Positions 20,398 to 37,169 of a DNA stretch of 64,000 nucleotides are shown here, in pieces. Position numbers and translations under genes: made by a program. The notes beneath the pieces are model-generated. The model was given only the letters and a program-made list of their open reading frames with translations, did no database searches and was not told the DNA's origin. This stretch comes from Lingula anatina (lineage: Eukaryota; Animalia; Brachiopoda), in NCBI GenBank assembly GCA_051362555.1, contig CM120646.1, positions 22,568,001 to 22,632,000 of the forward strand. Direction: 5' to 3'. Positions within the stretch are counted from its first letter, which is position 1, and every line of letters begins with the position of its first letter.

Positions 20398-20446
<49 letters not shown>

Positions 20447-22366
20447 TAAATAGGTTCAATACCTATATAGTACATATACATGGTATTGCTGGTTCACAGG
20501 TGTAAACTCCTGTCATATCAGTTCATGTCACTTGATATCACCTGTGGTTGACATAACTTTACACTTCTATAGAATATAAGGTGAAGTTAGTTCAAATTTA
20601 AGGCAGCATTGTGTGACCTGTAGTCTAGGTGTGGTCTGGGAGTGGGTGTGGTCTTATGTATACTGTACTCTTACAGTGATATGATAAACTTATGAAAAGT
20701 AAGGCCACATTCAGAACAGTGGACTTAATATTAGTTTGAGGGTCAAATATGCCGGACCCACTTGAATACTTACCTACGGGGAATCTATTCAGTGTCTATT
20801 AGCAGATAAGATGGCAAACTTTTTAGTGGGTCGCCATATTGGACCCGCGGACTAGTGAGTCCACTGTTCTGAATGCGACCTTATTCTATTTACTGAGTCA
20901 GAAGTTATCATTGACGATCTGGCTCAATTACGGGCATTTCTTTGGTCAGTGTGTATAATCTTTGGTCAGATTGTCATCAGTGCCGCATGGTCGGTAATGC
21001 TTCTATTAGTGCCAGCACGCGAGGTGGAGAAAGTTTTAATGTCAAAGTCAGCCACCATGCAGTTGACACGCTACGTACTATTATTCCACCCACAAATTAG
21101 AAAATTTGTTTTATGTTAAGTCTGATGGTATCAGTGGGTTATATACTCATAGAGAAACTTCTACATATATAGACAATCATCCAAATTTCAGACATGATTT
21201 TGCTTTTGCTCAGATCATTTAAAAACCTTTTAGAGTGTTTAGTTTTTTCACACCAAAGTAGACTGAGATGACACGAGTTTGTGACTCAGCTGATTTTGGT
21301 GATTTTGGAGAATAACACATACTTATAAGTAGTCACGGACCTAAGTTTGTACATTATCCTACAATCATGTAGCTCTTCTCTCTGTTGTTCAGCCATTTTG
21401 TTAAAAGGAGACCAATTAGATTAGTCTAAGACTGCCCTACAAATCTACACTATAAAGATACCAGCACTCATAACTATTACCTTAAAGGCATTCTTTTTAA
21501 AATCATTAGTAAGGAGTTTTTTCTTTTAATTTTTTTGGGGGGAGGGGAAAATTCAGTTTGATGGTATATGTTCTAACCATGGCCCTTACTAGTTTTTAAA
21601 AAGAATTTATTGACAAAAGCTTATAAAGAAGTGACACAGAAAAACAACACTTTCAAAGTACACAGAAGATGTTTGACTGGGATTGAAATACAGGGACTAC
21701 ATGAAACACATAGGGAATCCATTCTGTGTCACTTTGCTTTTTCTTTGATATGTTAAATTTGGTACATGCTTCAAATTATTATGTAAGTCTAATAGCTGTC
21801 TAAGCACAGACTGCTGTAGATCTCAGCTGAATAAAGTCTGCTTACTTGTGGGTTCTAAAAGGAATACATTGTATTTCATAATATTTTTTAAAAGATGCTT
21901 CATTTTCGACATTTTCTGGGGTCGTGTATTTAATTCATTTTGCTTTTCTCTTAAAAGAAAAGCTGCAGAAGCATATAAAATTCGATTCATTTTTTGCTTT
22001 GAAAAATGTGGCATATTTTTTTTTTCAAAGATCTGACATAGTATTGTTTCAGTAAGAATCAAAAGAAAGCAACACAGTCCCTACTGTTCCATGATTTATA
22101 GCAGTTGACATAAGTCATAGATCAGTGTAGAACACCTTACAAGCAGATACTTGCGTCATGCAATTCACACAACTGTCACCAGTTTGCTCTGGTTGGGGAT
22201 GGCACTCTAAGTCTCTTATACAGCTCTTATTATGTGGATTGAATATTGTGGATTTTGTGGATTTGAATGTATTTTTTTGAATGTTCATAATTTTTCTTAT
22301 AGTTCTGCTGACATTTTCACCCCATTTTTTACTGAGTAGACCTAATAAGAATCCACACACACGGAA

Positions 22367-22404
<38 letters not shown>

Positions 22405-25400
22405 GTTAACCACTCAGTATTTTAGCATGGATAAAATCATTTTTGAGAGGCAAATAATGCTTGTTTGAGAGAAAGATTTATGGTTACATTTAAGTATTAC
22501 ATGTTTACCAGTAGCATTACATGTATTAAACTATAATGCTACCACAGTAATGGGATATTTTGACACTGATAGGAAAGAACAAATATGTTGTTAGCTCTGT
22601 GCTGAGCAAACCATGAGAGCCAGTTTGAATGGCTGGTGGCAAGTTTTTTTCTAGTTTTGCAAAACAGCTAAGTCCTTTATAACAGTTTTTATGGATGGAC
22701 AACCTTCTGTAATGTTCTGTTATTGAGTCACAAATGTTATGTTACCTATAAATTATGTCAACATTAATAATCCAATGTCTTGTCTTATTTCAAGACTAGT
22801 AAAAATCTTGGGATTGACAGTATTGGAATATTTGAGTGTCTTGTGATAAGAGGAAAAAAAGATGTGTATTTTTTGAATGGATGAATCAGCACCTTAAGTA
22901 ATTAAATCAACCTAATAAGTAATTGTATGGACTGGTCTCTTAGCTCAGGACTGTTGTATATGCAGGAATTGTTTTAAAATCTCAATGAAATTCTTTAAGC
23001 TAAATCAGTAATAAAGAAGGCTTAAAACATGCTGTGTTTCATTTGATTTATGGCATTGCCAACTGAGGTATAATTATTTTGACAAAATTATCTTATGAAG
23101 ACTGTGATCTTTATGAAGGCTGTCATTAAAAAAAAAAGAGAGGCGGCTAGGTGAAAGAATGGTTCCTTATTACAAAATCATCAAATGAAAACTATTTTTT
23201 CTTATAAAAATTGTACCAACATGTCATAAATTTTGGTGAAATGCACTGCAGTTTGCACAGACATGTTTTTCTGATTTAATCAGGATATGATGATTTTTTT
23301 CTTGGTAGTTTTAAGAGACCAGCAGACCCCCTAGTCACAAAGCCATTGGGCCTTTCCTTCAATTATTTTACTTACAACCCAAAATCATATCTGATTTGGC
23401 AGGAGTCTGTCTGAAGGTGAACAATAGCCTGCCAAGAGACTACAATACCATGACAGGAAGTACAATACAGTGAAAAATGATGGAGCTTGGTGCCACTGTA
23501 CTTAATTCTACTTTTCTCTCTTAAATAACATGTTGTCAGTTGAGCTTTAAATTATATATGTCATAGTCACTGTATATCACTAAATAGTAAGGGGAGTGTT
23601 TACTTGTAAGTACTAGTACAGTATACAAGTGGCTCCTGTAGAGCTTTTGAAGCTGTGACAGTTATTATTCAATTATGGTAATTCTACTTATCAAATTTGA
23701 ACAGAATGAAGTAATATTATTCTGTTTTCCAAAGGAGGTGTCAGGTTATGAGTAAACGTTGATTCAAAGGTTGTGAAAAGCGGCTTGGCTATTTACCAGA
23801 AAGTACATTTTTTTGAGAAAAAAAGAGTAAATGATAAATTTGCAGGATATAAATGTGACTGTAGGGGATTTTCAAATGTTTGGAGAATATCCTCAGTGAC
23901 AAGACAGAGAAGGAAGCATTTTTTTCCTCTTTGTTGACAGGTACGCATGTCAAACAATCATAAAGAGGATCTGATTTTCGTGGAAGAAATGAAGGAACTT
24001 ATTAATAAAAACTTGTTGAAAATCGGAATTTTTAAAAAGTTCTTTGCAGTGAGAAAAAAAAAAACGAATGTAAATACTTGCTATGTTGCTAAAACAGTGG
24101 ACCCCTTTTTGCATGAAAAATTATTTTGCATATTCTTAGCAAATTAGAGAGATGGCAGTTCCTCAGTCCACTTGTACATTGAAATAATGCTGCCAAAATC
24201 TGAAGCCACATATCAGCTAAACTAAAAATCAGATTCAAATAATTTTTCGAGCTTCAGAACTGTAATTTAGATTTGATTTCTATACAGATGAGGAATTCAG
24301 TGAGAGATTTTATTGAGATACATGCTTTTGTCTATGTGTAAGAAGTAATGACAGCAAGATAGTACCCATGAATCTATCTGATAAGTTTGGTATAGTGTGC
24401 AAAAAGTTGGGCTTGAGTGAAAAAAAAATCCATGCACCTGTCTGAAAGTGTTGGAAAAGAGTGCAAAAAGTTCAGTTTGAGTGAAAAAATGAAGCAATCA
24501 CTGTCCCTCCCTTTCTCCCTATGTTCAAAGAGTTAGATAATATATTTGGTGTTGACTTAAGGCCATTTTTTGACAGATACCAGATTTTGCTTAAAGACCA
24601 AATTTCTAGCTGTAAACCCACATTGAGTTGGTAAAAAAATACCAAAACAGCTAGATGTCCTTTCTTCAGCAAAACTGAAGTTTCGGACATTAAGTCTCTT
24701 CATATCTGTGTTTCTCCTGAAATAACACTTGCATTTATAAATATTTCACAGAGACATAACTTCAAGTTCTGTTAGTGTTGGGATAAATTTGCAATAAAAG
24801 GGTCCTTCTATCACGATCAATATAGTTTCCCTTATTTACGAAAACTTATGTCGGTATACTACTTTAAAGCAAAAAAAAAAAAAAATTAATTAAGTTGTCC
24901 TCTGATGACTTGCAGATGTTTGTCTGATTTTGGATAGTGGTCATGTTAAGATAGTAATGTTGCGATAAAAAAAAAAACAAATATGTTTACTTGGGAACAT
25001 ATTTTTTATCATTAGAAACCCCAGATTTTATCAACATTTTCTTTGGTTTTCATTTTGGTAACATTTTGGAAATTAAACTGATGCAGTATTTTTACATGCT
25101 TCTTAGGACAAGAATGAGTCAATGTTTTGTAGAGCCAATGATGATAAAAGCTTGAGAAAGTATAGATATGAAAAGAAGCAATGAAATATTTTTTCTTTAA
25201 TGAAAAATTTCATTATATTTCACAGATCCAATGAGCTGAAAGTGTAATTTATATTCTTACACTGAGGTCAAAATGAAAAGCAGATGTGAACTCTAAATTC
25301 CAATTTAATTGTTTATTTAAATATAGTCACTATAATTAATTAATCATGTTATTGTACCACCAGCGCTGTGCTGCAGTTGCAACATAATAAAAGCAATTTT

Positions 25401-28400
25401 GGGTATATATTTTATGCATTATCATTATCATTATTATTATTGTTGTTATTCCAGGTTTTGCAATAAAAGCCCATTGTGAAGAGACTGCAGCAAACACAGT
25501 GGACAAGGCCCTGTTTATAGACTCTTTGTTTGAGGCCCTCAATGTCACTACAGAGAATGGTACTCTATCTGAGGAAGGTCAGTGAATTGAGAAATGTTTT
25601 TAAAGGATCTGAAATATTTCTATAAGATGGAAATGATTTTATTAGAAGAGCCTCTTATTGTTTAGGATTGGTCATGTTTTTATGGTTTGTGACCTGTGAG
25701 ATATTGTTTGAATTTGTAAGAAATAAATTTTTGCATGTTTTTAATACATTTTTGTATTAGAACCCCCCCCCCCCCAAAAAAAAAGTTTCTTTGGGTCTTG
25801 AACATTCAAAATTATGAAGCACTAAATGTTTATAAAAAGCTTTTGAAATGTGTTTTCAGCATTTGAAGCTCTCCTTACAAAGTTGAAAATCGGCGCTGTG
25901 AGTGGAGGAGAGACAGGTACCATTGTCGAAGGAGGTGGTGGTCACGATGGCCATGACCACCGCAGAAAGAAACGAGACACCCACAGCTCACTGGTGCAGA
26001 GAAAGAAGAGAGCAACTGGCGACCCTACGACTTCTCCCTCTGCCTCGGCCATGGAAGAAGATCACGAGCATGAGGCTGTTGAGAAAGTACGTAAAGGGTG
26101 TGGCCATCTTCATGCATTCATAAATTTTTTATTCACCTGTACATGTTGATTCCAAATATTTACAAACATTATTCCATAATTGTTGATAAAATGTTTAAAA
26201 TAGATTTATTCATTTTGAATGCATTCTCTGTGTTAAAAATTGAGATATTTGAAAAACAAGTTTATTAAATCAATGCAGGTGCCAGATGCTCTAAAACTAT
26301 TATAATAATGATAATGTTTATTGAGCACTTAATTTGTACAATCTACGAAGAGTAGTTTATAAACATTACATGTATACAGGAAATGAGTATAAAAAGGGGA
26401 TATTTTGATCTTGTTTCCAGTGTTTTAATGGCGAGGATCTTCTGACGGTGTTTGGGGTGGACCATGAGGCTGGAGTAACCAGAGCACAGTTTACTGACCT
26501 GTGTCCAGCATTAATACAGCAACAGATCACTGGGGCCTGCAGCGGGAGTCCTGCCAACACCACCAAGGCCAACACCAAGGCCTCCAGCACTGCAGAAAGT
26601 ATGCAGTGGTTGTTTTTTTAAATCATATTTATTGATTTAAGAAGCACATGTAATAATATATGCATACAAAAGTGGCAATTTGCTAGTAGCATTATATGCT
26701 CACTAAAAAAGGCAAAAAAAAAAATTGAACTATCTAACAATAATGGCTATCTGAGATACAGTTATGTTTTGAATTGATAAACCAAGGTTGTCATAGTAAT
26801 GTAACATGGCATTTCAGATGGTTGATGTTGATAATTGTATACTATACTATTATTTTTTCATTCCCACAATATACATGTACTTAATAAGTGTTGTATTTAA
26901 GGCCATTGAATATTTAAAAACTATTAGTTAAAACTATTGTAATGACTGTGTTGAAATCGGAATTCATTTGAATGTAGCTTTTGATAATTATTGAGACTTT
27001 CTATATTTACTAAAATCGTATTCCTCTAGCTTGTTAACAATTTCATGACATCCTCAAAATAAGCATGATGTATCAGGGTTATTTATTGATATTTTTCTAT
27101 TGTAAATGAATTTTTTCCCTAACTTTCAGTGTATGGGTACGGGAGTCTTGCAGTGTTCATCATTTCTCTCCTTGCTATTGGTGGAGTGTTCCTGATCCCG
27201 TGCATGGGGCATACAGCTTACCAGTATGTGATGGAGACATTCATAGCACTGGCTGTGGGGACCATGGCAGGAGATGCTTTACTCCATCTTATTCCACAGG
27301 TAAGTTTGAGATAATACAGTGTCATTGGAGCAGTATGTACCAGCTAGAACACCTCACCTCAGCAAACAGGTGTTCTAGATATGAATATTGGGGAGGGGAA
27401 GGGGCAGGGTAGTATTTGACATGGTATTTTACCAAAAAAGAAACAAAAAATTTAAACTGAAAAAAACATATATTGCCACAGTCACATAAGGTTTTTAGGT
27501 ATCAGACATGAGCTTTTTTCGCGGAAAAGCAAAATTCTTTATTTTTTAATTCGATTCTGATGGTTCCTGAGGTTCGTCAAGGTTAGGTGTTGGGCTCCAT
27601 GATATATGTTCAGAGTTTTTTGTTTTTTTTTTGAAACCTAGGCTCATGTCTGAGGTATGTATGTTGACAGGGAAGAAATTGTATTGTGATTGTGGTGACA
27701 ACTGGTGATCATTCCTGGAGCTGGTTTTCTCCAAAGATCTGGAGACCAAAGATTGACCTCATAGGAGCACTAGTCTAGTAACTTATAGACTTGAGGCTTT
27801 GTTGAGCATCAATTCTGAATAAATCTGCAGTAGTCCCCTGAAATAAAGTGACTTGATATAAAGTTTAATTGAGTGTCAAGGGTGAACTGCATGTTGATTT
27901 TATGTATTAGATATTCAGTGCATTGATAAGACCTTCACATTTTTAAACTACTTCCATGTGCTTTTCAATCCAATATTTACAAACAGATTTTGCTGAAAAA
28001 TATTAAGGGAGTTACGACCAGTCCTCTTCTTGTGATTAATCTGTTAAATTTTATTATTAATTTCCAATTCCTTCCAGTCACTGGGACTTCATGGACATGA
28101 TGCCGAGGCGGAGCAGGGTCACAACCACTCTGATATCAACAATATCACGGTCGACAATTATGTCTGGTACACATCCACGGTACTCCTAGGTAGGTGGCGT
28201 TACAAGATGTGTGCATGTGCGCGTGCTTGTTTACAGGGGAAGATCCAGGATTATTTGAAGGGGGGGGCGGGTGTCCAGGACGCCAAGCCTCGGAAGCAAA
28301 GCCAACCATCTCCCCCTTGGCGTGGGGTTTGGCGCCTGGTGAAAGGCATCAAAAATTTTGGGTGTTTTGGAGGGCAAATAGTGATCTTTGGTATGGTTTA

Positions 28401-31400
28401 GAACTATGATTCAGCTAGTCAAAATTCTAATTGCAAGAGGGGAATATTGGTGTGATATATTTTTCAGAAGCTGAATCTTGCCACTGTGCTTAGTCGTGTG
28501 TGTGTGTGTGTGTTATGCGTATTATGTGTATTAAGGATTGTGTATACTGTGTATGGTGGTCATTGTTGTAGAAACACCTGCATAGATGATTATACATGTA
28601 CTGTTATATAGTAGCACATTAAAAAAAAAAAAGACGTATGCAAGATGGCATTTTTCATAATTAGTACCACCAGCGTGTACGCTGGCGGTACTCATGGTTT
28701 TAGTCCCGACCCGTATCGTACGGCTCCGCCGGCTCCGCCGGCTCCGTGAGCTCCGCCGGCTCCGCAGGGTGGCGTGGGATACAAGTCACCGTTACCGCTT
28801 CTCCTCCTAGACCGCATGGACCTGTGTTCCCATCTCCTGGATTTAGGTCACATATAATCTCAACTTGAACCCCCTGGTTTTTTTGTCTTAGTTGGTGCAT
28901 GCGCTTGGGCGTGAGACTCGATGAAATGCACCCTTGTCAAATTTTTTGAAAATTCAATGCTATATATCTCCTAAACGGAAAGAATTATGGGAAAAATTAG
29001 TATAGAAGTCCGACCGAAAGTCATATATGAGGATTTCAAATTTGCTTTTGGATTTGACCTTTGACCTTTTTTCAAGGTCAAACAGGCCAAAATTTTCAAA
29101 AAAATGGGAATTTTTTGCAAAAAAACTTTTATTTGTGCCGAATTTCAGAAACTACAGCACTCATATTATAGTGAGGGGATGCAATTAGGGACTTCTTTCA
29201 TCTTTGGGAGTTTGAGGTCAATCGGTGCATTTTCACGGGAGAAACGGCCATAAGATGCGGAAACTGAAAACTCTCCCTAATTCTGGAACCGTAAATGCTA
29301 GATACCTCTTGTTTTTTGCATTATGTAGAGCTTGTCAAGTGCAATACTGGAGGTGGTGTCCATATTTTTGTTTGCGATACGGTTAAGGAGTTTCGCTATA
29401 TCAAAAAGCACAATTGAGCAATATTCAGTGGTGAAAATAAAATGTGAAATACTCCAAAAGTAGCGGAGATACACCCATAGTTACTATTGAACTTGAATAG
29501 GAAGTCATATACTGGCAATCTTACTGTGACCTTGAAATTGACCTTCGACCTACTTTTCACCATGAACTGAACTTTGCAATTTTTCCATCCCTTCTATCTC
29601 CAAAACTAGCAGAGATAAACTCATAGTTACTGTTGAACTTGAATAGGAAGTCATATACTGGCAATCTAACTGTGACCTTGAAATTGACCTTTGACCTACT
29701 TTTCACCATTAACTGAACTTTGCAATTTTTCCATCCCTTATATCACCAAAACTAGCAGAGATACACCCATAGTTACCATTGAACTTGAATAGGCAGTCAC
29801 ATACTGACAATCTAACTGTGACATTGAAATTGACCTATGACCTACTTTTCACCATGCACTGAATTTTGCAATTTTTCCATCCCTTTTTTCTCCAATACTG
29901 GCAGAAATACACCCATGGTTACTTTTGAACATGAATAGGAAGTCGTATGCTGGACATCTAACTGTCATATTTAAATTGACCTTTGACTTTTTTTTCACCA
30001 TGAACTGAACTTTGCAAATTTTCTATCCCTTATATTTCCAAATCTGGCAGAGATAGGCCTATTTTTTTCTTTCAATATTTTTGCAACACTGATAATGCAT
30101 TTTAAAGAAAACCAACAAGCCTATTGTCTTGAAAATCTGCTTGATCAGACGATTTTCATAAAATTGTGCTGTTTTTTTTTTTTTTTATTTTGGGTGAGGG
30201 GGCATATTTCTTGTCTTGTTTATTGCATTTTGAAGAGCTTGTCAAACACAACACTGGTAGTTGTTCCTGTTTGTTTTTGGTTTTCATACGAATGCGCTTA
30301 CTCCAGCTGGTGGTACAATATCCGGAGGCGGTATCGCCTCTCTGATCCTCTAGTTTTAAGAGTAAAATAAACAACATTGCTGTAACAATAGTAAATTATA
30401 CTTTTCTGAAGGTAGAACTCATGATCATTCCTTTGTGTAAGCTTACCAAGTGTTTTTCATGTTTTTTTTTTTTTTGTAATGTTACTCCACCGATGTACAA
30501 CAATTACCTTTAATAGGTTTTCAAATAATCAAAATTATCCATTTTATCTGTTTAACATTTATTTTGTTGTAGCTCTGTATGCATTCTTCCTGTTAGAGAC
30601 TGTGATGGGAATGCTTGGAGGAGGACATAATGTAAGCTGACTGTATTTGTAAAGTCATTTATCAGACAAAAGTCTGATATCAATCACACATGATATTACA
30701 TCTTGTAAAACTCCATGATGAGGGCTTTATCTTAAACGAAGTCTTGCTGAAAGCAATTAGCTGTGTCATGCTGTATTCCATGTGAAAACACATTTTTGTC
30801 CAGCTGTATGTGGCTCAACAAGCAATAGTGCATGGAAAACCCCTGCAAACCAGCTTGTTACCCATAATAATTACTAATAAATGGTTGCATGATGTTGCAT
30901 TGTTTGCCAAATATGCTATATATTCTCATAACTTTATATTTCTTAATTTAATTGTATATTGTCCAAGTATGAGCATACATGTAACTTATTGTATTTGTCA
31001 TTATATTAATGCAGATGCTTTTATTGATAATAGTTAAATTTCAAAGATGCATTTGTCTGAACTTGGCTAAATGTTTAATGTCTTACTGATGTTTAATTTC
31101 TAGCATTCACATATGGGACCAGATAAGGTGCGTTTTATAACCTTTTAACTCTGTTTTATTGTATAGCCCTACAATAATTGACTATTAAGTACATATGAAT
31201 CATGGTAAAAATCAGCCACACTCTTTGTCCTGTCCGTGGGAAGTTTTTAATTTAAAATATAATTTTCCATTGTTTAATAATACTTACTATTGCAGTATTT
31301 ATTGATAGATATATGAAATGGTGTTTATTTAAAAGATTAAAAATGTGACTATAGATACTATTATTGACTTATGTTGTTTTATTGTCTGCTTTTAAGCATA

Positions 31401-34400
31401 TTTCTTAGCTAGGTTGACAACAATGTAAATAAGCAGAAATGATTATTATTTAATACATTATTCATTACATAAATAAATTAAATACAATAGTGTTGTTTCT
31501 ATATTTTCAGAAACCAGAAATAGTCCACAAGGAACCAGTGGAAGCAGATTTTGCCCATACTGATGAAGTGATTCGCAGAAGTTTTCGTCGCAAGAAGAAC
31601 AAGGAATTGAAACAATCAACGTCTGTCATTGAATTTGCTGACAAAGAGGTAGAGTCTTTTTTTAGCCAAAACACATATTGAACTTTAAGTTGAGCAAATT
31701 TCTTTAAATTTTATGGACTTTTGTAGGGTTGAATAAAATTTTTATGGGCTCTGTTTTTTTTTTTTTTTTTTTTTTTTTTTTTGGGGGGGGGGGTCACCCT
31801 GTACAAGATATGACTCCATGAAAATAAATCAAATGATTTTAGAAAATTAACTGCATGATTTTAGAATATTAATGAATGATTTTAGATTAGAGTAAGAGTG
31901 ATGATAAGATTGCACAATGTTGTAAGCGCTGTTATAATATATCTTATTATCTGATGGAAAATTCAGACATGATTTTTGGGTTGTAAGAAAAACAAAGTAA
32001 GAAAGATGAAATGGTTTTTGGGCCTTAACACTGGGGTTCTGAGGCAGCTTTAGGCAAGAAACAGCCAAGAAAAATTCAGATTTTTATGATAAATTTGAAA
32101 GAAGTCATGTCTGAAAATTCATTTGAAAGATGTTCATTGTGTGTTTTTGCAAACAAAAATATTTTTCTTCTCATTTATGTGACAGGGTAAACTTAAGGTT
32201 CCATCAGTAAGAGTAAGTGACAGATGATTTTATCAAACGCTGAAGAATTCAGCTGACTGTGCTTTACTTGCTATGCACTTCTTCTAATGTTTGTATGGAT
32301 GCTTCAAACAAAGGGCTTGGTACTTTTCTTCAAGTTTACACATGGTCTATTTCTTCAGCACATAAAGAGATAAATGATGTTAAATATACATAGACCCTGG
32401 CAGTTTTTGAAAGAAAGTGCAATGATTTGCAAGACTAATTAAAAAGCTGTTGAATGCTGCTGACTGACAAACTAACATGGCAATCTAAAAATTAAAAAAA
32501 AAATTAATGCCTTCTTAATGCAGAATTTGTAATTAATTAACTAACTGATTTTATTTTGAGAATTCTTTTTGTTGCAAAAGACTAAATAATGTGCCAGGTA
32601 TAACCAAAGCTTAATTAATGTTTGACCCTGAATGTTATAACTTTCTTATTCAGTTGATATTCATTTTCTGTCATGTACAACATTTTCTGCTTTTTATTTC
32701 ATGTGTTTGCTTAAGGTTTGTTGAGCAATCTAAATGTTTTATTTTAAAAGTGATATTCATATATTCTACATGCCCTTGAATTTTAACCTGGATCCAGTGA
32801 GTAGAGTGTATGGATCACAAGCATATGACAGTTTAGAGATTTGCCATAAGTTTGGCCTACATTTTGACCACTTTTCTATCAATGGTGCAAAACATTTTAC
32901 AATATAGGGTTTAGAAATGTCAAACTATCATGGAATCACAATATATTTTTCGGTTATCATCAGAAAACAGTGTTTTCTATTGCACCAAGTACATGTACTT
33001 AAACAAAATTAAACTTTCTGACATTTTTTCTAGGGAATGACAAATTATAATGACAAACTCTGGAAATTCAGCTGTATGCACAGATTTTAGAAAATATAAT
33101 GGAACTGTATATTAGTTTTGATGGAAAAAACGATTTCCTTTGGAATAAACAGTATTTGTGTTTTAAAATACAGATCAGGAAGAAAATTTAATGAAGCTGA
33201 TGATGAATGACAAAAAATAAGTCTCACATAATACTTCATTACTATTCAGAATGTCATTTTACAATTTAATTATGTCACTCTGATTTCTCTCAGGTCACAG
33301 ACGAGAATGGTTTTGCTGACAAGATGGAGAATGGTGTAGAAAACGGACATGCTGTAAGTCTCCCAGATGTCAAGGTCACAACAGAGGAGCCAGAGGCGAC
33401 CAGTCCGCCCAGGAGGCTGAGCGTCACCAAGGAGATAGATGAGGAAGAGGAGGAGAATGTAGCCTGTTATAAAAGTAGGTCAAGGACACTGTTTTGAGTA
33501 GGTCAAGGTCACTGTTATATGAGTAGGTCAAGATTACAGTTGCTAACTACATGTACAAATATTTATCTGTTTGTATTTCTTCATTATTTTTTTATGTTCA
33601 AAGATAATGAATTGAATCTTTTTAAAGGCATTCTGTTGATGTACATGCCAGTTACTTACCACCATTTTAATCATGTGTTCACTCCAGGTTAATTTTGTTT
33701 TGTTACCTATTATGCTTATTCACCTCTCTTCCTTTAACATTTGATGCTTAGTTGTCAATGATAGCTTTTTATGGAATTTTGTGGAACATAAAATGGTGAT
33801 TTTTACTATCATTTTTCAGTGATATCATATCACGTTGGTTTTTGCACAATTATTTTCTATCAACCAATGTTTTACATGTTTTCTTTTGATTTTGTTGATT
33901 GGTTTACACATTTAACTACATTAAAAAGTATTAATTTTTAAAATGTATAAAAAATGTGTTGGTGTGCACAGAGGTTCAACTCAGTGAGCTTCCTTAAATA
34001 TAGGTTTGTATAACTGGATCATGTACTAGGGTTTTACTATATGATTATTTTTTAATTGTTATTCAATTTGTAGCATATCTATCCACCATGTTATGATTAT
34101 GATTGTAATATAAACCATCATGCTTTTCTTCAATGGCTTTGTTCCATATAGAAATCAAAACTGTTGTCTGGATGACATTGATTGGCGATACAATCCACAA
34201 TATGGCGGATGGCATGGCAGTGGGAGCCGCCTTTGCTGCCAGTGTAAGCTCTGGTATCGCTACGGCAATAGCAGTATTTTTTCACGAGCTTCCCCATGAA
34301 CTCGGTAGGTTGGAGACATTGGAAACAAGATGGCTGCTGGGTCTAGCCACCTGCATATACACATCACAACACCGGGAAGACCTTTCTAGGGACAATTATT

Positions 34401-37169
34401 ATTTCACTTTTTAGCTGCTACTCGTTCAGATTCAAGGGCTTTCCAGATGGTTGTTCTCATAATGTTCACAGAATGATGTTTTTCCTTGTTCTGAACCAAG
34501 AGAAAGGACCATCTGGAACAGCCTCTCCCATCCCTGGATAACCTGGTGACCTACTAACCTTGATGTTTGCTTATTTCCTTATTTCAGCTGATCATTTTGT
34601 TTTTAGTTATGCATACTGTACCGGGGACCACATGTACCTTTATAGGGAAACATTTCAAGTTTGGCGTGTCTTTGTCTTCTTTGTATTTTTCATCTCAGAA
34701 TTTCCCTCTCTGCATCCAAAATACCTGGCTTTGGTATAATATTTTATTTAGTGCTTATAGAGAATAAGTATTTAAGAGCCAAATGAATTTAAGAAGTTAT
34801 TGCCTCAAAATTATTAAATAAATAATGTGATTTAATACTCAAAATAAAGTCAAATTTTAACCAGTATATGTCTCAGGACAGTTCAGTATGTCTCAGGACA
34901 GTTCAAAATACATAGAACATCCCTAATATGACAAAGGAAGAATATTTGAAATGCTTCCCTACAGAAAATTAATTTGTAAGGTGTTGTAGGTAACTTCTTG
35001 CAATACCTGCACAACTCTTTTGACCATGCATGTTTACTGTATGTTTTGATTGAATTTTTTATTCATGATTTTTCTAACCTGCCAATCATACATCCCCTCC
35101 CCTCATCCACCTAAATCATTCTTGATGATGATTTCCTTTAGGTTATCCATCCCTTGGCGTAGTGGTCCTTTGTAGTAGTTAGAAATCTGACCTATTTTTT
35201 GTATGGAAATCTAGGTCATTGGGCTTGTAGATCATCCTGTTAGTTTTTTTGTTTGTCCATGTGTGTTTTAGGGTTGAAGCCCGTAGCATACATGACTCTC
35301 ATCGGAGATACTCTCCACAATACTGTAGATGGCATTGCCATCGGGGCTGCCTTTACGTCTGGTATCGCTTCTGGGATATCAACAGCCATCGCTGTGTTTT
35401 GTCATGAGTTGCCGCATGAGTTTGGTAAGAGGTTCACAAAGAGATATAGATGTAAAACTTAGTATTTCTGTTAGAGCATGTTTAATTTAGTTGATTAGTA
35501 TGTGTACTAAAAATAACCTTCACTTCCTTGAGTATTGCATGTTGATGCCCCCCCTGTAGAATTTTATTACCATTATTTAATTTAGAACTTGCATGATTTT
35601 ATACTCCCCAGTTGAAATTCTCAAAATGTTTTAATCCCTAGAGCATTTCTTAGTTTGTGTTCCTGTAGAAGTTAATCCTCACTATTATTTCTATCAAAAT
35701 AACAAATTAAATGATCCTTTTTCTTCCCTATTACCCTACAAACTTCATATATACAGATTTCTTACATATTTAAACTTGCACACCTTCATATTTTATCAGT
35801 CAAGTTGAACACCATTTTTTAAAATAATTTTATAGCCAAGAGATGTTTTCTTGTTAACTGTTCTGGAAGTGGACTACTACTGTCATACTGATTTCAAGTT
35901 TTTGCTGTGATTAATTTACTGTCTCTGTTAATTAACAAGATATCATTTACATTTTGTTACATGCACTCCATTATTATTTTTGTGGTTAGCTTATACATTT
36001 AATCAAACTATAAACTTAAGATTGTTTTTTTTATTTCCGGTTATTGTTTGTACACTTTTGTCTCACTTCCGTTGAATTTATTTTAAATCCATAAAAAATA
36101 ATACTCCTTAACACATAACACTTAGCACAATTACACATATTTTGAACTATGAAAATATGATTAAAATATGAAAGCTAAACAAGTTGTTAGGACATCTATG
36201 AATGTTATAAGAAATTGAAAATTTTCTGTATGCTTGTCCAATATAAATATTATCAACCTTAGCTGACATCTTGTTAACAAGTCGAAAAAAAAATTCAATT
36301 TTATTTTGATAAATGGAAATGCATGTCTATATAATTCTGGTCAATCTGTGGCAAATAAAATATATACCAGTAGTTAGAAATTAAGACCTGTCCTTAAGTA
36401 TAATGTTTTTTCTCACTTTAGGTGATTTTGCCATCCTCCTGACTGGGGGTTTCAACTTCAAGCAAGCAGTTCTGTGCAATTTTCTCTCAGCTCTGGCCTC
36501 TTTCATTGGCCTCTTTATCGGTATCGCCATAGCGATAGATGGTGCCACAAGATCTTGGATCTTTGCCATCACAGCCGGGATGTTCCTGTACATCTCCTTG
36601 GTTGACATGGTAATAGAAATTACTTCTTTTTTTTTTTTGCTTCTGTCAGTTGTTTGTTTATCAGATTTGATTAATTTATCTGTAGAACTATTCAATGGTG
36701 TATGTTATGCTACTGATTTGGTGGAACCTTTGTATTTTGTTCAATACCACCACAAATGTCAGTTATCAGGAAAAATAGAATCGGTAAATATTAGATCTAA
36801 GGAAAAGGTCGTCATCATGAAAGCATTCCTAACTTTGTGTTTTGCACAAGATGCATTGTGACATTTATAAATTAGCTTTTATTTAATGTGAGTAAATGCC
36901 CTGTATCCTCTGCATATTTCTGTCAGACCAACAGAAATCCCTGCAAAGAAATTTAAGCAGACTGAAATGATGACTCAGGCAAGACATAATCATGAACTGA
37001 AGCCTGTCTTTCAAATTATTTTTCTTTAATTTCCCAGCTTCCTGAACTGATCAACATGAAAGCCCCTGGCAACAAGTGCATCAGTTTCCTGCTGCAGAAC
37101 CTGGGGATTTTGTTTGGCTTTGGCACCATGCTCTGTCTCTCCGTCTTTGAAGACTACATACAAGTATAG
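1..37169 (+). CDS. SLC39A12: LIV-1 subfamily ZIP zinc/metal transporter (SLC39A12/ZIP4-like), 5'-partial, multi-exon: <1-77, 1484-1663, 2096-2212, 2640-2754, 25455-25577, 25860-26086, 26421-26598, 27130-27299, 28078-28189, 30573-30631, 31104-31127, 31511-31648, (32186-32212), 33294-33474, [34152-34304 or 35272-35424], 36422-36609, 37038-37169
   Basis: All exons have AG/GT boundaries with compatible phases and splice into one open frame. It contains CPALIQQ (PAL motif), [17 protein letters not shown] (TM2), a His-rich loop (HNHSH), GDTxHNxxDG (TM4), HELPHExGDF (TM5), [16 protein letters not shown] (TM7) and QNLGILFGF (TM8), ending at TAG 37167-37169. The repeated ectodomain modules resemble ZIP12/ZIP4; orthology is not certain. 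Confidence 0.9.
1484..1663 (+). CDS. ZIP ectodomain exon ([38 protein letters not shown])
   Basis: tag|TGT acceptor, AAG|gtataa donor, 180 nt; ZIP12-like helical module. Confidence 0.85.
2096..2212 (+). CDS. ZIP ectodomain exon ([39 protein letters not shown])
   Basis: ttcag| acceptor, |gtaatc donor, 117 nt, phase 0-0, open frame. Confidence 0.8.
2640..2754 (+). CDS. ZIP ectodomain exon ([38 protein letters not shown])
   Basis: cctag| acceptor, G|gtgagt donor, phase 0-1; second ectodomain module. Confidence 0.85.
2798..2944. mobile_element. Short dispersed MITE-like repeat (CAGG..CCTG ends); related copy at 51045-51212
   Basis: ggatccagagatc..tctgacagtcttccaaa..atccatcctcca..aaaatctgaccgtc..acccctg is shared with the 51045-51212 copy. 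Confidence 0.55.
3567..5935. mobile_element. Non-autonomous TIR DNA transposon with TA target duplication (Tc1/mariner-type ends) carrying an internal tandem array
   Basis: Perfect 25-bp TIR CGGTAAAGTCTTGAAAATTTCGTCG at 3567-3591 and its reverse complement at 5911-5935, TA on both sides, subterminal TTGAAAATTTCGTC repeats, no transposase ORF. Confidence 0.85.
4134..5450. repeat. ~275-bp tandem repeat (about 4.5 units) built from GGGAGATCGTTCGCGAT subrepeats
   Basis: Near-identical units at about 4491-4768, 4769-5041 and 5042-5300, with diverged or partial units on either side. Confidence 0.9.
6633..8204 (-). CDS. Type II membrane GT-B fucosyltransferase-like protein (NodZ/FUT8/GT23-GT37-like motifs), paralog 1, 523 aa, single coding exon
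   Basis: N-terminal TM ([21 protein letters not shown]), disordered stem, [15 protein letters not shown] (motif I), LFVSTD (motif II), [18 protein letters not shown] (motif III). Confidence 0.8.
   Translation of the reverse strand: MSEVQQKGHIQKYKQCFLFLLFLSCIGILASYVSYLCGMSLSTRNPLSFQAALTASKRTKLLGNQNSLRDATGMGRLNVKNDPSTQGSQEKLGESGKDKTGKKIIKKIQMKRMDTKHRRYDDNSSFNSKQGKQGDSEHDEHQTTTAIIRQTITFPLKQDNKRHSSQTQISRSGSNVMLDVKRRDCSKTKCQYAIWQCHHHCMGWGDRLRGIISVYAFAILTGREYRISHTFPCNLKKFFHGNKTPWDKEDITAKHATTRDIKLFGFKLTFQNWVLQSSNLSETFPEDIITFRTNDDIIPYLRFNKNFTKTIEKAFNMPIEDFHYVTLFRRLFHELFSPNKRFQKKFQKYYHLLKPSNDSTLVCAQIRLEFIKVSGMKNVFKFLQETIKRVGKSKLFVSTDAEDVRTAAKMLFPDQLVDIEGPLSHVDEPKAGCRDMEKALTDFLMLSKCDILIHSPSGFSQQAAMLKYPYKDVYQISRAGIIRKLTIPIFKLEKQYVQLGPLEGKLPLSLPSKYIKNPQKYFT
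8563..8670. repeat. G-rich (GGGGT/GGGGA)n tract
   Basis: About 18 runs of 3-5 G; potential G-quadruplex. Confidence 0.85.
9412..11100 (-). CDS. Type II membrane fucosyltransferase-like protein, paralog 2, 562 aa, single coding exon
   Basis: Same TM and motifs as paralog 1; intact ORF; catalytic domain nearly identical to paralog 3. Confidence 0.8.
   Translation of the reverse strand: MSETEQTGRIQGYKQCFLFLLFLSCIGILASYVSYLCYLSPSTTNPFSFHAAFTTRKHTVLTSSKIDPTGATSTGSLKVKNNISTQGSQEKLGESGKEENSLKSNTKLEMKAKDTGSFNIKKDTLNKDSLDKLDENGREEKSMKRSEKMQMKRMETGEGHDNSSFEARPETKSAKGHDGHQTTTAKIQQTTAFISKQENKRQANQTQIGRSGRNFTLDVRRRDCSKTKCQYAIWQCQHHCMGWGDRLRGIISVYAFAILTGREYRISHTFPCNLKEFFHGNKTPWDEKVITAEHATKRNIKLFGFLPTFGSWVLQSSNLSETFPEDIITFRTNDDIIPYLRFNKNFTKTIEKAFSMPIDDFHYVTLFRRLFHELFNPNKQFEEKFQKYYQLLKPSNDSTLVCAQIRLQFIKVSGMKNVFKFLQETIKRVGKCKLLVSTDAENVRSAAKTLFPDQLVDIEGPLGHVDKPGSGCRDMEKALTDFLMLSKCDILIHSPSGFGQQAAMLKYPYKDVYQINYAGVITKLTIPIFRLENLYEELGPLGGEQPPSLPSRYIKNPQKYFT
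11814..11866. repeat. (TA)n microsatellite
   Basis: Direct reading. Confidence 0.95.
12244..12464 (-). pseudogene. Internal fragment of a fourth fucosyltransferase-like paralog
   Basis: Encodes [41 protein letters not shown]. It has small in-frame deletions and no TM, start codon or C-terminal motifs. Confidence 0.85.
13071..13208. repeat. 32-bp minisatellite x ~4.3
   Basis: CAACAACCATATTAAATCCATCACATATATTA at 13071, 13103, 13135, 13167; about 2 copies in the paralogous block at 8921-8970. Confidence 0.9.
13718..15397 (-). CDS. Type II membrane fucosyltransferase-like protein, paralog 3, 559 aa, single coding exon
   Basis: Same TM and GWGDRLRG / CAQIR / VSTD / DFLMLSKCD motifs; intact ORF. 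Confidence 0.8.
   Translation of the reverse strand: MLEKEQTGRIQGYKKCFLFLLFLSCIGILTSYVGYLSQSTTNPLSFHAAFTTRKHTVLTSSKIDPTGATSTGSLKVKDNISTQGSQEKLGKSGEEEKNLKSNKKLEMRAKDTGSFNIKMNPLNKDSLDKPDENGREEKSTESSKKMQTKKSETGEGHDNSSFEAHQETQGAKGHDGNQTTTAKIQQTTAFISKQDNKRQANQTQIGRSGRNFTLDVKRRDCSKTKCQYVIWQCHHHCMGWGDRLRGIISVYAFAILTGREYRIAHTFPCNLKEFFHGNKTLWDEKVITAEHATKRNIKLFGFLPTFGSWVLQSSNLSETFPEDIITFRTNNDIIPYLRFNKNFTKTIEKAFSMPIDDFHYVTLFRRLFHELFSPNKQFEEKFQKYYQLLKPSNDSTLVCAQIRLQFIKVSGMKNVFKFLQETIKRVGKSKLLVSTDAENVRSAAKTLFPEQLVDIEGPLGHVDKPGSGCRDMEKALTDFLMLSKCDILIHSPSGFGQQAAMLKYPYKDVYQINYAGVITNLTIPIFKLENLYEELGPLGGEQPPSLPSRYIKNPQKYFT
15600..15827. mobile_element. Foldback MITE with ~47-bp TIRs and a nested ~39-bp inverted repeat
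   Basis: GGCTTCGTTCACATGCAATGTCTATTTTCTAAATTCTATTTTCTATT and its reverse complement at the ends, TTAA on both sides, inner inverted repeat 15683-15775. Confidence 0.9.
17879..17998. repeat. Dispersed repeat, second copy at about 19269-19368
   Basis: gtgcaggc..agccagcaattt..aaagag..gttcttttt..ctgaaaaa..gtggacc..tacctaga..aaattttacc is shared. Confidence 0.6.
18441..18632. mobile_element. Palindromic MITE (~57-bp imperfect TIRs); half-copy at about 46005-46100
   Basis: ttcacatcgagaagagc..ggtctagcaaggc..gagacctaaatatggcggac pairs with gtccgccatatttaggtctc..gccttgctagacc..gctcttctcgatgtgaa. Confidence 0.8.
20392..20441. repeat. (CA)n microsatellite preceded by (CT)n
   Basis: Direct reading. 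Confidence 0.9.
20702..20881. mobile_element. MITE with ~23-bp imperfect TIRs (AGGCCACATTCAGAACAGTGGACT)
   Basis: The right end agtccactgttctgaatgcgacct is the imperfect reverse complement; TA flanks; termini resemble those of the 15600 MITE. Confidence 0.7.
25455..25577 (+). CDS. ZIP exon ([41 protein letters not shown])
   Basis: ccag| acceptor, phase 1 matching the donor at 2755; G|gtcagt donor. Confidence 0.8.
25860..26086 (+). CDS. ZIP exon, His-rich linker with RRKKR and RKKR motifs
   Basis: ttcag| acceptor, AAA|gtacgt donor; [32 protein letters not shown]. Confidence 0.85.
26421..26598 (+). CDS. ZIP exon with PAL motif ([22 protein letters not shown])
   Basis: LIV-1 CPALLxQ signature; canonical splice sites. 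Confidence 0.92.
27130..27299 (+). CDS. ZIP exon TM1-TM2
   Basis: [31 protein letters not shown]; CAG|gtaagt donor. Confidence 0.95.
28078..28189 (+). CDS. ZIP exon ([29 protein letters not shown])
   Basis: ccag| acceptor, G|gtaggt donor; His-containing extracellular loop and start of TM3. Confidence 0.88.
28660..30356 (+). mobile_element. Non-autonomous Helentron-like (HINE/DINE-type) element with internal tandem array
   Basis: Subterminal inverted repeat GTACCACCAGC (28664-28674) with a local hairpin partner at 28681-28691 and GCTGGTGGTAC at 30306-30316. Also a GGCTCCGCC microrepeat, a TTTGACC..GGTCAAA palindrome, a 3' hairpin GAGGCG-GTAT-CGCCTC and a CTAGTTTT end. Confidence 0.75.
29460..30055. 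repeat. ~146-bp tandem repeat x ~4 inside the Helentron-like element
   Basis: Recurring GCAGAGATACACCCATAGTTACT..GAACTTGAATAGGAAGTC..TTGACC units. Confidence 0.9.
30573..30631 (+). CDS. ZIP exon TM3 ([20 protein letters not shown])
   Basis: gtag| acceptor, phase 1; AAT|gtaagc donor. Confidence 0.9.
31104..31127 (+). CDS. ZIP 24-nt micro-exon (HSHMGPDK)
   Basis: ttctag| acceptor, AAG|gtgcgt donor; completes the HNHSH motif. Confidence 0.75.
31511..31648 (+). CDS. ZIP cytoplasmic loop exon ([16 protein letters not shown])
   Basis: ttttcag| acceptor, GAG|gtagag donor, 138 nt, phase 0-0. Confidence 0.8.
32186..32212 (+). CDS. Candidate 27-nt micro-exon (GKLKVPSVR)
   Basis: Pyrimidine tract plus gacag| acceptor; |gtaagt donor; in frame. 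Confidence 0.5.
33294..33474 (+). CDS. ZIP cytoplasmic loop exon ([19 protein letters not shown])
   Basis: ctcag| acceptor, A|gtaggt donor, phase 0-1. Confidence 0.85.
34152..34304 (+). CDS. ZIP TM4-TM5 exon, variant A ([38 protein letters not shown])
   Basis: 153 nt, phase 1-1, atag| and |gtaggt sites. Confidence 0.88.
35272..35424 (+). CDS. ZIP TM4-TM5 exon, variant B ([38 protein letters not shown])
   Basis: 153 nt, phase 1-1, ttttag| and |gtaaga sites. Confidence 0.9.
36422..36609 (+). CDS. ZIP exon TM6-TM7 ([19 protein letters not shown])
   Basis: Canonical motif and splice sites. Confidence 0.95.
37038..37169 (+). CDS. ZIP last coding exon TM8 ([32 protein letters not shown])
   Basis: cccag| acceptor; TAG stop at 37167-37169. 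Confidence 0.93.
   Translation, partial: LPELINMKAPGNKCISFLLQNLGILFGFGTMLCLSVFEDYIQV

What the first reader, a model, noticed from the sequence alone, without database searches (positions are those of the whole stretch)
34152..35424. Duplicated, probably mutually exclusive exons swap the metal-transport site of a ZIP transporter
Seen: two homologous exons, each 153 nt and phase 1-1, with intact splice sites and no stops. Both encode TM4-TM5 but differ widely at the DNA level while conserving the ligands ([32 protein letters not shown]). Known: TM4-TM5 carry the binuclear metal site of ZIP transporters and the LIV-1 motif is CHExPHExGD. Exon A replaces that Cys with Phe and changes residues next to the ligands. 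Vertebrate ZIP14 has mutually exclusive exons, but as I recall in an earlier part of the protein. Inference: one gene makes two transporters with interchangeable pore modules, possibly differing in metal selectivity (Zn/Fe/Mn/Cd), kinetics or redox sensitivity. Including both exons would keep the frame but duplicate two TMs, so exclusion would need an active mechanism.
Basis: partly seen in the sequence, partly recalled or inferred. Interest (0 to 1): 0.88.

Follow-up and report, generated by a model that had tools for sequence, protein, structure and literature searches.

The report
Swappable metal-site exon in zinc transporter
A brachiopod zinc-transporter gene has two old, intact copies of the exon that builds its metal-binding site and its RNA nearly always uses one or the other, giving two proteins with identical metal-gripping residues that likely differ in uptake speed or affinity.

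Summary
Two homologous 153-nt exons (A 34152-34304, B 35272-35424) each encode TM4 and most of TM5 of a ZIP4/12-type transporter of the brachiopod Lingula anatina. RNA reads from 4 runs in 2 studies show all four exclusive junctions (A 38, B 141 reads), only 3 A>B reads (one run) and no listed skip of both. Synonymous sites are saturated (pS 0.86) while pN is 0.20, so the duplication is old and protein-constrained. RefSeq already annotates both isoforms automatically.

All six ligands and the ZIP8 selectivity positions that map into the exon are identical. Phe before HE occurs in 9 of 172 homologues. What changes is 17 non-ligand residues of the moving domain, most strikingly HN-MA-D versus HN-TV-D and F476 versus C476. 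Likely effect: tuning of rate or affinity, as in NKCC2 exon 4; untested. No such swap was seen in 21 clusters of related proteins. A's share did not differ between runs (p 0.42). The exclusion mechanism is unresolved; a strong stem-loop lies between the exons.

The parts
34152..34304 (+). Alternative exon A (minor, about 21% of junction reads); residues 433-483, TM4 and most of TM5; HN-MA-DG ... FFHELPHEL
35272..35424 (+). Alternative exon B (major, about 79%); same residues; HN-TV-DG ... FCHELPHEF
33294..33474 (+). Upstream common exon (end of the TM3-TM4 loop); its donor joins A or B
36422..36609 (+). Downstream common exon (starts in the GD of HExPHExGD); joined from A or B
34305..35271 (+). 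Intron between A and B (967 nt); rarely spliced as a unit (3 reads); no detectable similarity to the flanking introns
34370..34548 (+). Predicted extended RNA stem-loop (core 34435-34525), the best-folding of 199 intron windows; candidate splicing element, untested
   Evidence: z -3.6, 2 of 200 shuffles; z -5.3 from 25 shuffles
34552..34588 (+). TACTAAC branch-point-like motif followed by a pyrimidine tract and AG; no listed junction uses it; possible decoy acceptor
   Evidence: sequence; TACTAAC occurs 3 times on the + strand of the window
34867..34905 (+). Two identical 19-nt copies whose core could pair either upstream (33488-33498) or downstream (35856-35866); weak lead for competing pairing
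   Evidence: 38 of 400 and 20 of 400 shuffles do as well
33464..33541 (+). Three tandem copies of the upstream donor region (GTAGGTCA at 33475, 33498, 33523); listed junctions use only the first
17654..37169 (+). Host gene, start codon to stop: ZIP4/12-type (LIV-1) transporter of Lingula anatina, 589 aa (RefSeq XP_013379925.1 with A, XP_013379926.1 with B)

Best explanation
This Lingula ZIP4/12-type transporter gene holds two old, intact copies of its TM4-TM5 exon that are spliced in nearly always one at a time (A about one fifth, B about four fifths of junction reads), giving two proteins with the same six metal ligands that likely differ in transport rate or affinity through their non-ligand residues. 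Shown: duplication, exclusive splicing, protein-level constraint, identical ligands. Inferred: the duplication arose in the lineage leading to Lingula. The 17 changed residues lie in the mobile transport domain (TM1/4/5/6) of an elevator carrier. The key ones sit between and beside the ligands (450-451 MA versus TV, 476 F versus C, 483 L versus F), where they would shift ligand geometry or domain sliding and so change Km or Vmax for Zn, perhaps with a modest change of Zn/Cd preference. Double inclusion would keep the frame but add a second TM4-TM5 hairpin, so it would likely misfold. It is suppressed at the RNA level by a mechanism not resolved here, most plausibly RNA structure in the intron between the exons.
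For: Junction reads in 4 of 4 runs laid on the narrow region, from 2 studies. Both isoforms are in RefSeq, from a haplotype that differs from the window at 5 residues elsewhere but not in A or B. pS 0.86 versus pN 0.20, with pN below pS in all 5000 bootstraps; neutral change of only 0.25 per site keeps 16 near-invariant residues and an open frame in 17 of 200,000 simulations. A and B are sisters in a 51-column exon-only tree (SH-aLRT 94) and share rare T441 (0 of 171) and T446 (1 of 171). The model (pLDDT above 90 over 441-500) puts helices at 436-462 and 464-491, and its ten best PDB matches are BbZIP structures, though none reaches E 0.001. Each exon has family-atypical residues next to ligands. 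Non-ligand residues at the domain interface tune ZIP8 Zn/Cd selectivity (PMC10372143). Conservative differences in alternative NKCC2 exons set ion affinity (PMC7818487).
Against: No transport assay exists. Every experimentally defined selectivity position that maps into the exon is the same in A and B. Many of the 17 differences are at variable columns where both residues are common in the family. Purifying selection is expected for any included exon and does not show divergent function. A's share (15, 24, 23, 29%) does not differ significantly between runs (p 0.42). No relative shows the swap, and no second brachiopod sequence was recognised among the hits listed. Long-range RNA pairings are no better than shuffles. 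Side-chain orientation of the changed residues could not be read from the model.
Confidence: 0.55

Rival explanations
1. The two exons are functionally interchangeable. After duplication both stayed in use, each must make a working transporter and is therefore purified, and the 17 differences are tolerated drift or co-adapted packing changes.
For: All ligands and mapped selectivity positions are identical. Many differences fall at variable columns. The A:B ratio is flat across 4 runs. Both exons score similarly against the family profile (-87.7 and -91.2 bits).
Against: The minor exon survived long enough for synonymous sites to saturate and flanking introns to lose all similarity; a redundant minor exon would be expected to be lost (inference). 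Unusual residues sit right beside ligands in each exon.
Confidence: 0.27
2. The exons switch metal selectivity outright (for example a Zn-specific form versus a Cd/Mn/Fe-permissive form), under tissue or metal control.
For: The exon carries all six ligands and half of the transport domain. ZIP14 exon 4B versus 4A gives an eightfold difference in Cd affinity (PMC10761908). Residues away from the site can shift ZIP8 selectivity.
Against: The H/E switch at the E343/H536 position, the D/E position, and the shared TM2 His (H248, taken as the H379/Q180 equivalent from its motif position, not from an alignment with the human proteins) are the same in both isoforms. No ratio shift between runs.
Confidence: 0.12
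3. Exon A makes a weak or non-transporting subunit, or the A path serves to dampen expression (retained A-B intron, misfolded A+B product), so the pair regulates the amount of active transporter.
For: A is minor and lacks the Cys present in 158 of 172 homologues. In X1-X3 the A-B intron has read depth 1.6-4.1 while the intron after B has 0. 3 A>B reads exist.
Against: A keeps every ligand and has the commoner residues at 451 and 483. Phe476 occurs in intact-looking ZIP4 proteins of lungfish and elephant shrew and in locust ZIPs. X7 does not show the intron pattern.
Confidence: 0.05
4. An assembly artefact (two alleles placed in tandem) or a dead pseudo-exon.
For: The species is polymorphic (many read differences).
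Against: 36% nucleotide difference with saturated synonymous sites is far beyond allelic. Both exons are spliced to the same flanking exons and occasionally to each other. A second haplotype annotates both.
Confidence: 0.01

Closest known systems
NKCC2 (SLC12A1) alternative exons 4B/4A/4F
   Same: Tandem duplicated, homologous exons encoding a transmembrane segment of a carrier; conservative differences set ion affinity (PMC7818487, passages).
   Different: Different fold and ions. Three exons with segment-specific expression and measured kinetics. Here two exons carry all six listed ligands unchanged, with no functional data and no regulation shown.
Vertebrate ZIP14 (SLC39A14) mutually exclusive exons 4A/4B
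   Same: Same family (LIV-1 ZIP) and same splicing type; the isoforms differ eightfold in Cd affinity (PMC10761908 and PMC10470845, passages).
   Different: A different paralogue. That its exon 4 lies N-terminal of the TM4-TM5 site is recalled, not checked here. The Lingula pair is an independent duplication of the metal-site exon itself.
ZIP4/ZIP12 (SLC39A4/A12) group and the BbZIP binuclear site
   Same: PF02535 plus PF21116; groups with ZIP4/12-type proteins; ligand spacing identical to hZIP4; BbZIP is the top fold match.
   Different: No examined relative shows alternative TM4-TM5 segments. The Lingula protein shows no PF18292 hit, which many relatives carry.
Drosophila serpent exon 4 bidirectional RNA pairing
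   Same: Two exclusive exons. Here one inter-exon element could pair upstream or downstream, as described for srp (PMC4691838, abstract and headings).
   Different: In srp the pairings are supported by comparative genomics and experiment. Here they are at shuffle level singly and borderline jointly, with no covariation test possible.

Membership tests
ZIP (SLC39) transporter | Pfam Zip domain PF02535 above the curated cut-off | tested here: met
   234 and 235 bits versus cut-off 35.1 for isoforms A and B
ZIP (SLC39) transporter | Binuclear-site ligands on TM4 and TM5 at hZIP4 spacing (H507, N508, D511, H536, E537, H540) | tested here: met
   H448, N449, D452, H477, E478, H481 in both isoforms (numbering from PMC5573306)
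ZIP (SLC39) transporter | Divalent metal uptake | not testable with these tools
   needs a transport assay
LIV-1 subfamily | HExPHExGD motif in TM5 | tested here: met
   HELPHELGD (A) and HELPHEFGD (B)
LIV-1 subfamily | Cys preceding the motif (present in human members except ZIP7 and ZIP13) | tested here: inconclusive
   Met in B, not in A (Phe). The feature is not universal (10.1101/2025.08.09.669477); Phe in 9 of 172 homologous segments
ZIP4/ZIP12 group | Groups with ZIP4/12-type proteins apart from ZIP10-type ones, and has the PF21116 extracellular domain | tested here: met
   Quick tree only, 42 selected rows, midpoint root, split support 98, no ZIP5/6/7/8/13/14 vertebrate rows included; PF21116 49.9 bits
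Duplication-derived mutually exclusive exons | Adjacent, homologous, same length and phase | tested here: met
Duplication-derived mutually exclusive exons | Each exon joined to both flanks; double inclusion and double skipping rare | tested here: met
   16, 54, 22 and 87 reads for the four joints; 3 for A>B; skip not listed
Duplication-derived mutually exclusive exons | Tissue- or stage-regulated choice | tested here: inconclusive
   A share 15-29% in 4 runs, p 0.42; tissues coded and unknown; low counts
Exclusion by frameshift and decay | Double inclusion shifts the frame | tested here: not met
   153 nt is 51 codons; the A+B form is open
Exclusion by steric interference | Branch point within about 50 nt of the upstream donor (PMC5740500) | tested here: not met
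   The best motif (TACTAAC, 34552) is about 250 nt from A's donor and has 34 AGs before B's acceptor; the predicted stem-loop could shorten the distance to about 75 nt, untested
Exclusion by competing RNA pairings (Dscam/srp type) | Conserved, covarying docking-selector helices stronger than chance | tested here: inconclusive
   Best helices equal to shuffles; joint statistic 38 of 400 and 20 of 400; no second genome for covariation

The most novel reading that the evidence does not exclude
One ZIP gene encodes two transport-site modules with identical ligands but different metal preference (for example Zn-tight versus Cd/Mn/Fe-permissive, or high-affinity versus high-capacity). The difference is set purely by second-shell residues at 450-451 and 476, and the module is chosen by an RNA structure switch in response to tissue or metal status: a natural chimera that reveals a selectivity code outside the known filter.
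Probability: 0.15. Interest if true: 0.8.

Novelty: new variant of a known kind. Interest (0 to 1): 0.5.

Why it matters
How ZIP transporters with the same ligands differ in rate and metal preference is an open question, so far approached by engineered ZIP8/ZIP4 swaps. Here evolution supplies a pair identical at 572 of 589 residues that differ only in the helices carrying the metal site, with ligands fixed, so the role of second-shell and domain-interface residues can be tested directly with two cDNAs. It is also an independent origin of exclusive exons in the ZIP family, at the transport site. The interest is limited by three things: both isoforms are already in automatic annotation, the case is seen in one species, and no functional or regulatory difference is shown.

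Tried and rejected
No whole genome was held, so no orthologous exons, lineage dN/dS or covariation. The run search listed no indexed RNA holder ('no RNA holder listed'); raw-read runs of the same species label were laid instead. The first lay (25000-39500; X1, X4, X7, X8) was swamped by an intronic repeat and showed only B>next among the key joints; X4 barely covered the gene. X5, X6 and X9 were never laid, and X4 and X8 not on the narrow region.

A third, decayed exon copy suspected by eye at 34589-34733 was rejected: no profile hit; exon B against this intron gave a marginal DNA score (6 of 300 shuffles as good, one of six tests) at a different place. Intron similarity around A and B: none. 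Docking of the triple GTAGGTCA to TGACCTAC (34547) or TGACCTA (35188) looked attractive (-14.5 to -18.2 kcal/mol) but is below the shuffle mean for best helices. The whole A-B intron folds only at z -1.7.

The single-sequence structure was useless (pLDDT 41). The PDB sequence search found only the ZIP4 extracellular domain. The careful tree did not finish; the quick tree was used. One paper's 'Q322T' maps literally to residue 456, where A and B differ (V/I). But that column never holds Thr among 172 segments while 466 often does (48 of 115), so I read it as 332, which maps to S466 in both; this is my inference. PMC12753238 gave no hits for the Cys position; PMC3013455 was not held. Earlier findings: nothing.

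Full report
Observation. The window shows two 153-nt exons at 34152-34304 (A) and 35272-35424 (B), each with AG and GT ends, phase 1-1 and an open frame, 97 of 153 nt and 33 of 50 residues alike. A profile of 103 homologous segments finds these two places and nothing else in six frames of the window. Exon A is 100% identical to part of XP_013379925.1 of Lingula anatina. That cluster has three RefSeq members: X1 with A, X2 (XP_013379926.1) with B, and X3 with A but without a 9-residue exon. The RefSeq proteins differ from the window's translation at five residues elsewhere but not in A or B, so a second haplotype also has both exons intact.

Splicing. Nine runs were listed by species label; four (X1, X2, X3 of study P1 and X7 of P3) were laid on 33280-36640, reading 6-25% of each. 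Upstream>A: 2, 2, 7, 5 reads. Upstream>B: 22, 8, 17, 7. A>downstream: 8, 8, 3, 3. B>downstream: 35, 23, 16, 13. A>B: 0, 3, 0, 0. A skip of both exons was not listed (threshold 3 reads). A takes 38 of 179 junction reads (21%), with no significant difference between runs (p 0.42); 3 of 25 A-donor joints go to B (95% interval 3-31%). Counts are reads, so mates may count twice, and the tissues are unknown. The exons are thus mutually exclusive with a small leak. X8 showed 21 B>downstream reads in the wider lay, where the other key joints were not displayed, and X4 barely covered the gene.

Age and constraint. Between A and B pS is 0.86 (saturated; bootstrap 0.70-0.99) and pN 0.20 (0.13-0.28); 21 of the 33 codons with the same residue differ in DNA. 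Neutral change at 0.25 per site kept 16 near-invariant residues and an open frame in 17 of 200,000 simulations, and in none at 0.5 or more. The flanking introns share no similarity beyond shuffles. In an exon-only tree of 30 chosen rows and 51 columns A and B are sisters (SH-aLRT 94, not starred), and they share T441 (0 of 171 other segments) and T446 (1 of 171). Raw identity alone does not show this: A is 33 of 51 identical to B but up to 36 of 51 to other proteins. I infer an old duplication within the lineage leading to Lingula.

Relatives. A quick full-length tree of 42 chosen rows puts the gene among spiralian ZIP4/12-type proteins, beside nemertean and Owenia sequences (the careful search did not finish). 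Members of 21 clusters of related proteins were read (one cluster listed 15 of 24 members). None showed isoforms of one gene with a swapped TM4-TM5; differences were one to a few residues between species, paralogues or fragments. No protein among the 324 held has two TM5 motifs. No second brachiopod sequence was recognised among the 120 of 549 and 120 of 556 hits listed (best identity 63% over short stretches). This rests on annotated proteins only and is weak evidence of absence.

What the exon changes. An AlphaFold2 model from 113 sequences (mean pLDDT 73, above 90 over 441-500) has helices at 436-462 and 464-491, so the exon (433-483) is TM4 and most of TM5. Its ten best PDB matches are all BbZIP, with E 0.006-0.07, none under 0.001. 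TM4 and TM5 are half of the mobile transport domain TM1/4/5/6 (10.1101/2025.08.09.669477, passages). The hZIP4 ligands H507, N508, D511, H536, E537, H540 (PMC5573306, passages) map by constant offset to H448, N449, D452, H477, E478, H481, identical in A and B. The ZIP8 positions C310, E318, S325, E343 and N357 (PMC10372143, passages and sections 9 and 14; PMC12406047, abstract and section 6) map by offset to G444, D452, A459, H477 and T491, also identical. The one doubtful case ('Q322T') is discussed under Tried and rejected. So the ligand set is not swapped.

Of the 17 differences, many are at variable columns. The notable ones, among 172 distinct homologous segments: position 450 (family F 152, L 16; A has M, B has T, neither seen), 451 (A has Ala, 87; B has Val, 1), 454 (M 18, I 6), 476 (A has Phe, 9; B has Cys, 158) and 483 (L 130, F 15). 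Segments with insertions or no motif match were left out (4 of 119). Each exon therefore has atypical residues beside the ligands, and the major exon B is the odder one in TM4. The Cys is not among the ligands listed, and human ZIP7 and ZIP13 lack it.

Likely function. In ZIP8, two residues at the transport/scaffold interface, away from the site, together doubled Zn/Cd selectivity. In NKCC2, conservative differences in alternative transmembrane exons set ion affinity (PMC7818487, passages). ZIP14 exon 4B has eightfold higher Cd affinity than 4A (PMC10761908, passages; PMC10470845, passages). By analogy, and because a minor exon persisted to synonymous saturation, I put 0.55 on tuning of rate or affinity, 0.27 on functional equivalence, 0.12 on an outright selectivity switch, 0.05 on a regulatory or dampening role for A and 0.01 on artefact. 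None of this is measured.

How exclusion might work. A frameshift is ruled out. Classical steric interference needs a branch point within about 50 nt of the donor (PMC5740500, passages). The best motif, TACTAAC at 34552, is about 250 nt away and has 34 AGs before B's acceptor. A stem-loop at 34435-34525 is the best of 199 intron windows (z -5.3 with 25 shuffles; z -3.6 and 2 of 200 shuffles, window chosen after seeing it). It extends to 34370-34548 in prediction and has no other copy in the window. B's acceptor also lies in a predicted hairpin (35258-35294; z about -4.1). Long-range helices between the introns are no better than shuffles. One inter-exon element that could pair either upstream or downstream, as in Drosophila srp (PMC4691838, abstract and headings; PMC11802352, passages), reaches 38 of 400 and 20 of 400 shuffles. 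These are leads only.

Literature. Four searches (20 of 121, 20 of 1,308, 2 of 2 and 12 of 25 papers listed) showed no paper describing exclusive TM4-TM5 exons in a ZIP or this Lingula gene, judged from listings and abstract starts. Subscription papers and all supplements, including those of Lingula genome papers, were not seen and could mention it. Look-ups of earlier findings returned nothing.

Verdict. Real, expressed, old mutually exclusive exons covering the metal-site helices of a ZIP; a new variant of a known kind. The ligands are unchanged, both isoforms are already machine-annotated, and functional difference and regulation are unshown. Interest 0.5; the selectivity-switch reading has probability about 0.15 and would merit 0.8.

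Noticed in passing
window 32186-32212 (+): A 27-nt micro-exon (9 residues) in the TM3-TM4 loop of the same gene is alternatively skipped: loose ends give skip:include of 24:67, 20:64 and 12:38 in X1-X3; RefSeq X3 lacks it.
   Followed up: partly
window 31104-31127 (+): A 24-nt micro-exon encodes part of the His-containing stretch after TM3; junction reads support it.
   Followed up: partly
window 34410-35200: In X1-X3 the A-B intron has sense-strand depth of 1.6-4.1, with piles at 34523-34635 and 34975-35087, while the intron after B has none; X7 differs. It may reflect slow removal or retention of this intron; unexplained.
   Followed up: partly
window 34605: A>G in about half or more of the reads of X1-X3 (4 of 8, 4 of 6, 6 of 8) removes an intronic AG after a pyrimidine tract; allele or editing not distinguished.
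   Followed up: no
window 33474: An apparent A>C allele in X7 at the last base of the upstream exon would be silent with exon B (Arg) but change Lys to Gln with exon A. The listed variants inside A (34207) and B (35366) are both synonymous; 21 rows of the table were not shown.
   Followed up: partly
window 6633-8204, 9412-11100, 13718-15397 (-): Three tandem, uninterrupted ORFs of 523-562 aa with an N-terminal hydrophobic segment, a variable polar stem and a conserved C-terminal domain; one has a weak xyloglucan fucosyltransferase hit below cut-off (E 0.0037). A partial copy lies near 12.2-12.5 kb.
   Followed up: partly
window 42836-44407 (-): A long ORF whose first 34 residues match the end of the SH3BP5 domain, probably the last exon of an SH3BP5-like gene.
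   Followed up: no
window 28700-30400: A repeat element with tandem units of about 145 nt in the intron after 28189 attracts thousands of RNA reads of 90-95% identity, so the family is abundant in transcripts.
   Followed up: no
P0003 / P0010: The Lingula protein (589 aa) shows no hit to the N-terminal domain PF18292 that many ZIP4/12-type relatives of 650-800 aa carry.
   Followed up: no
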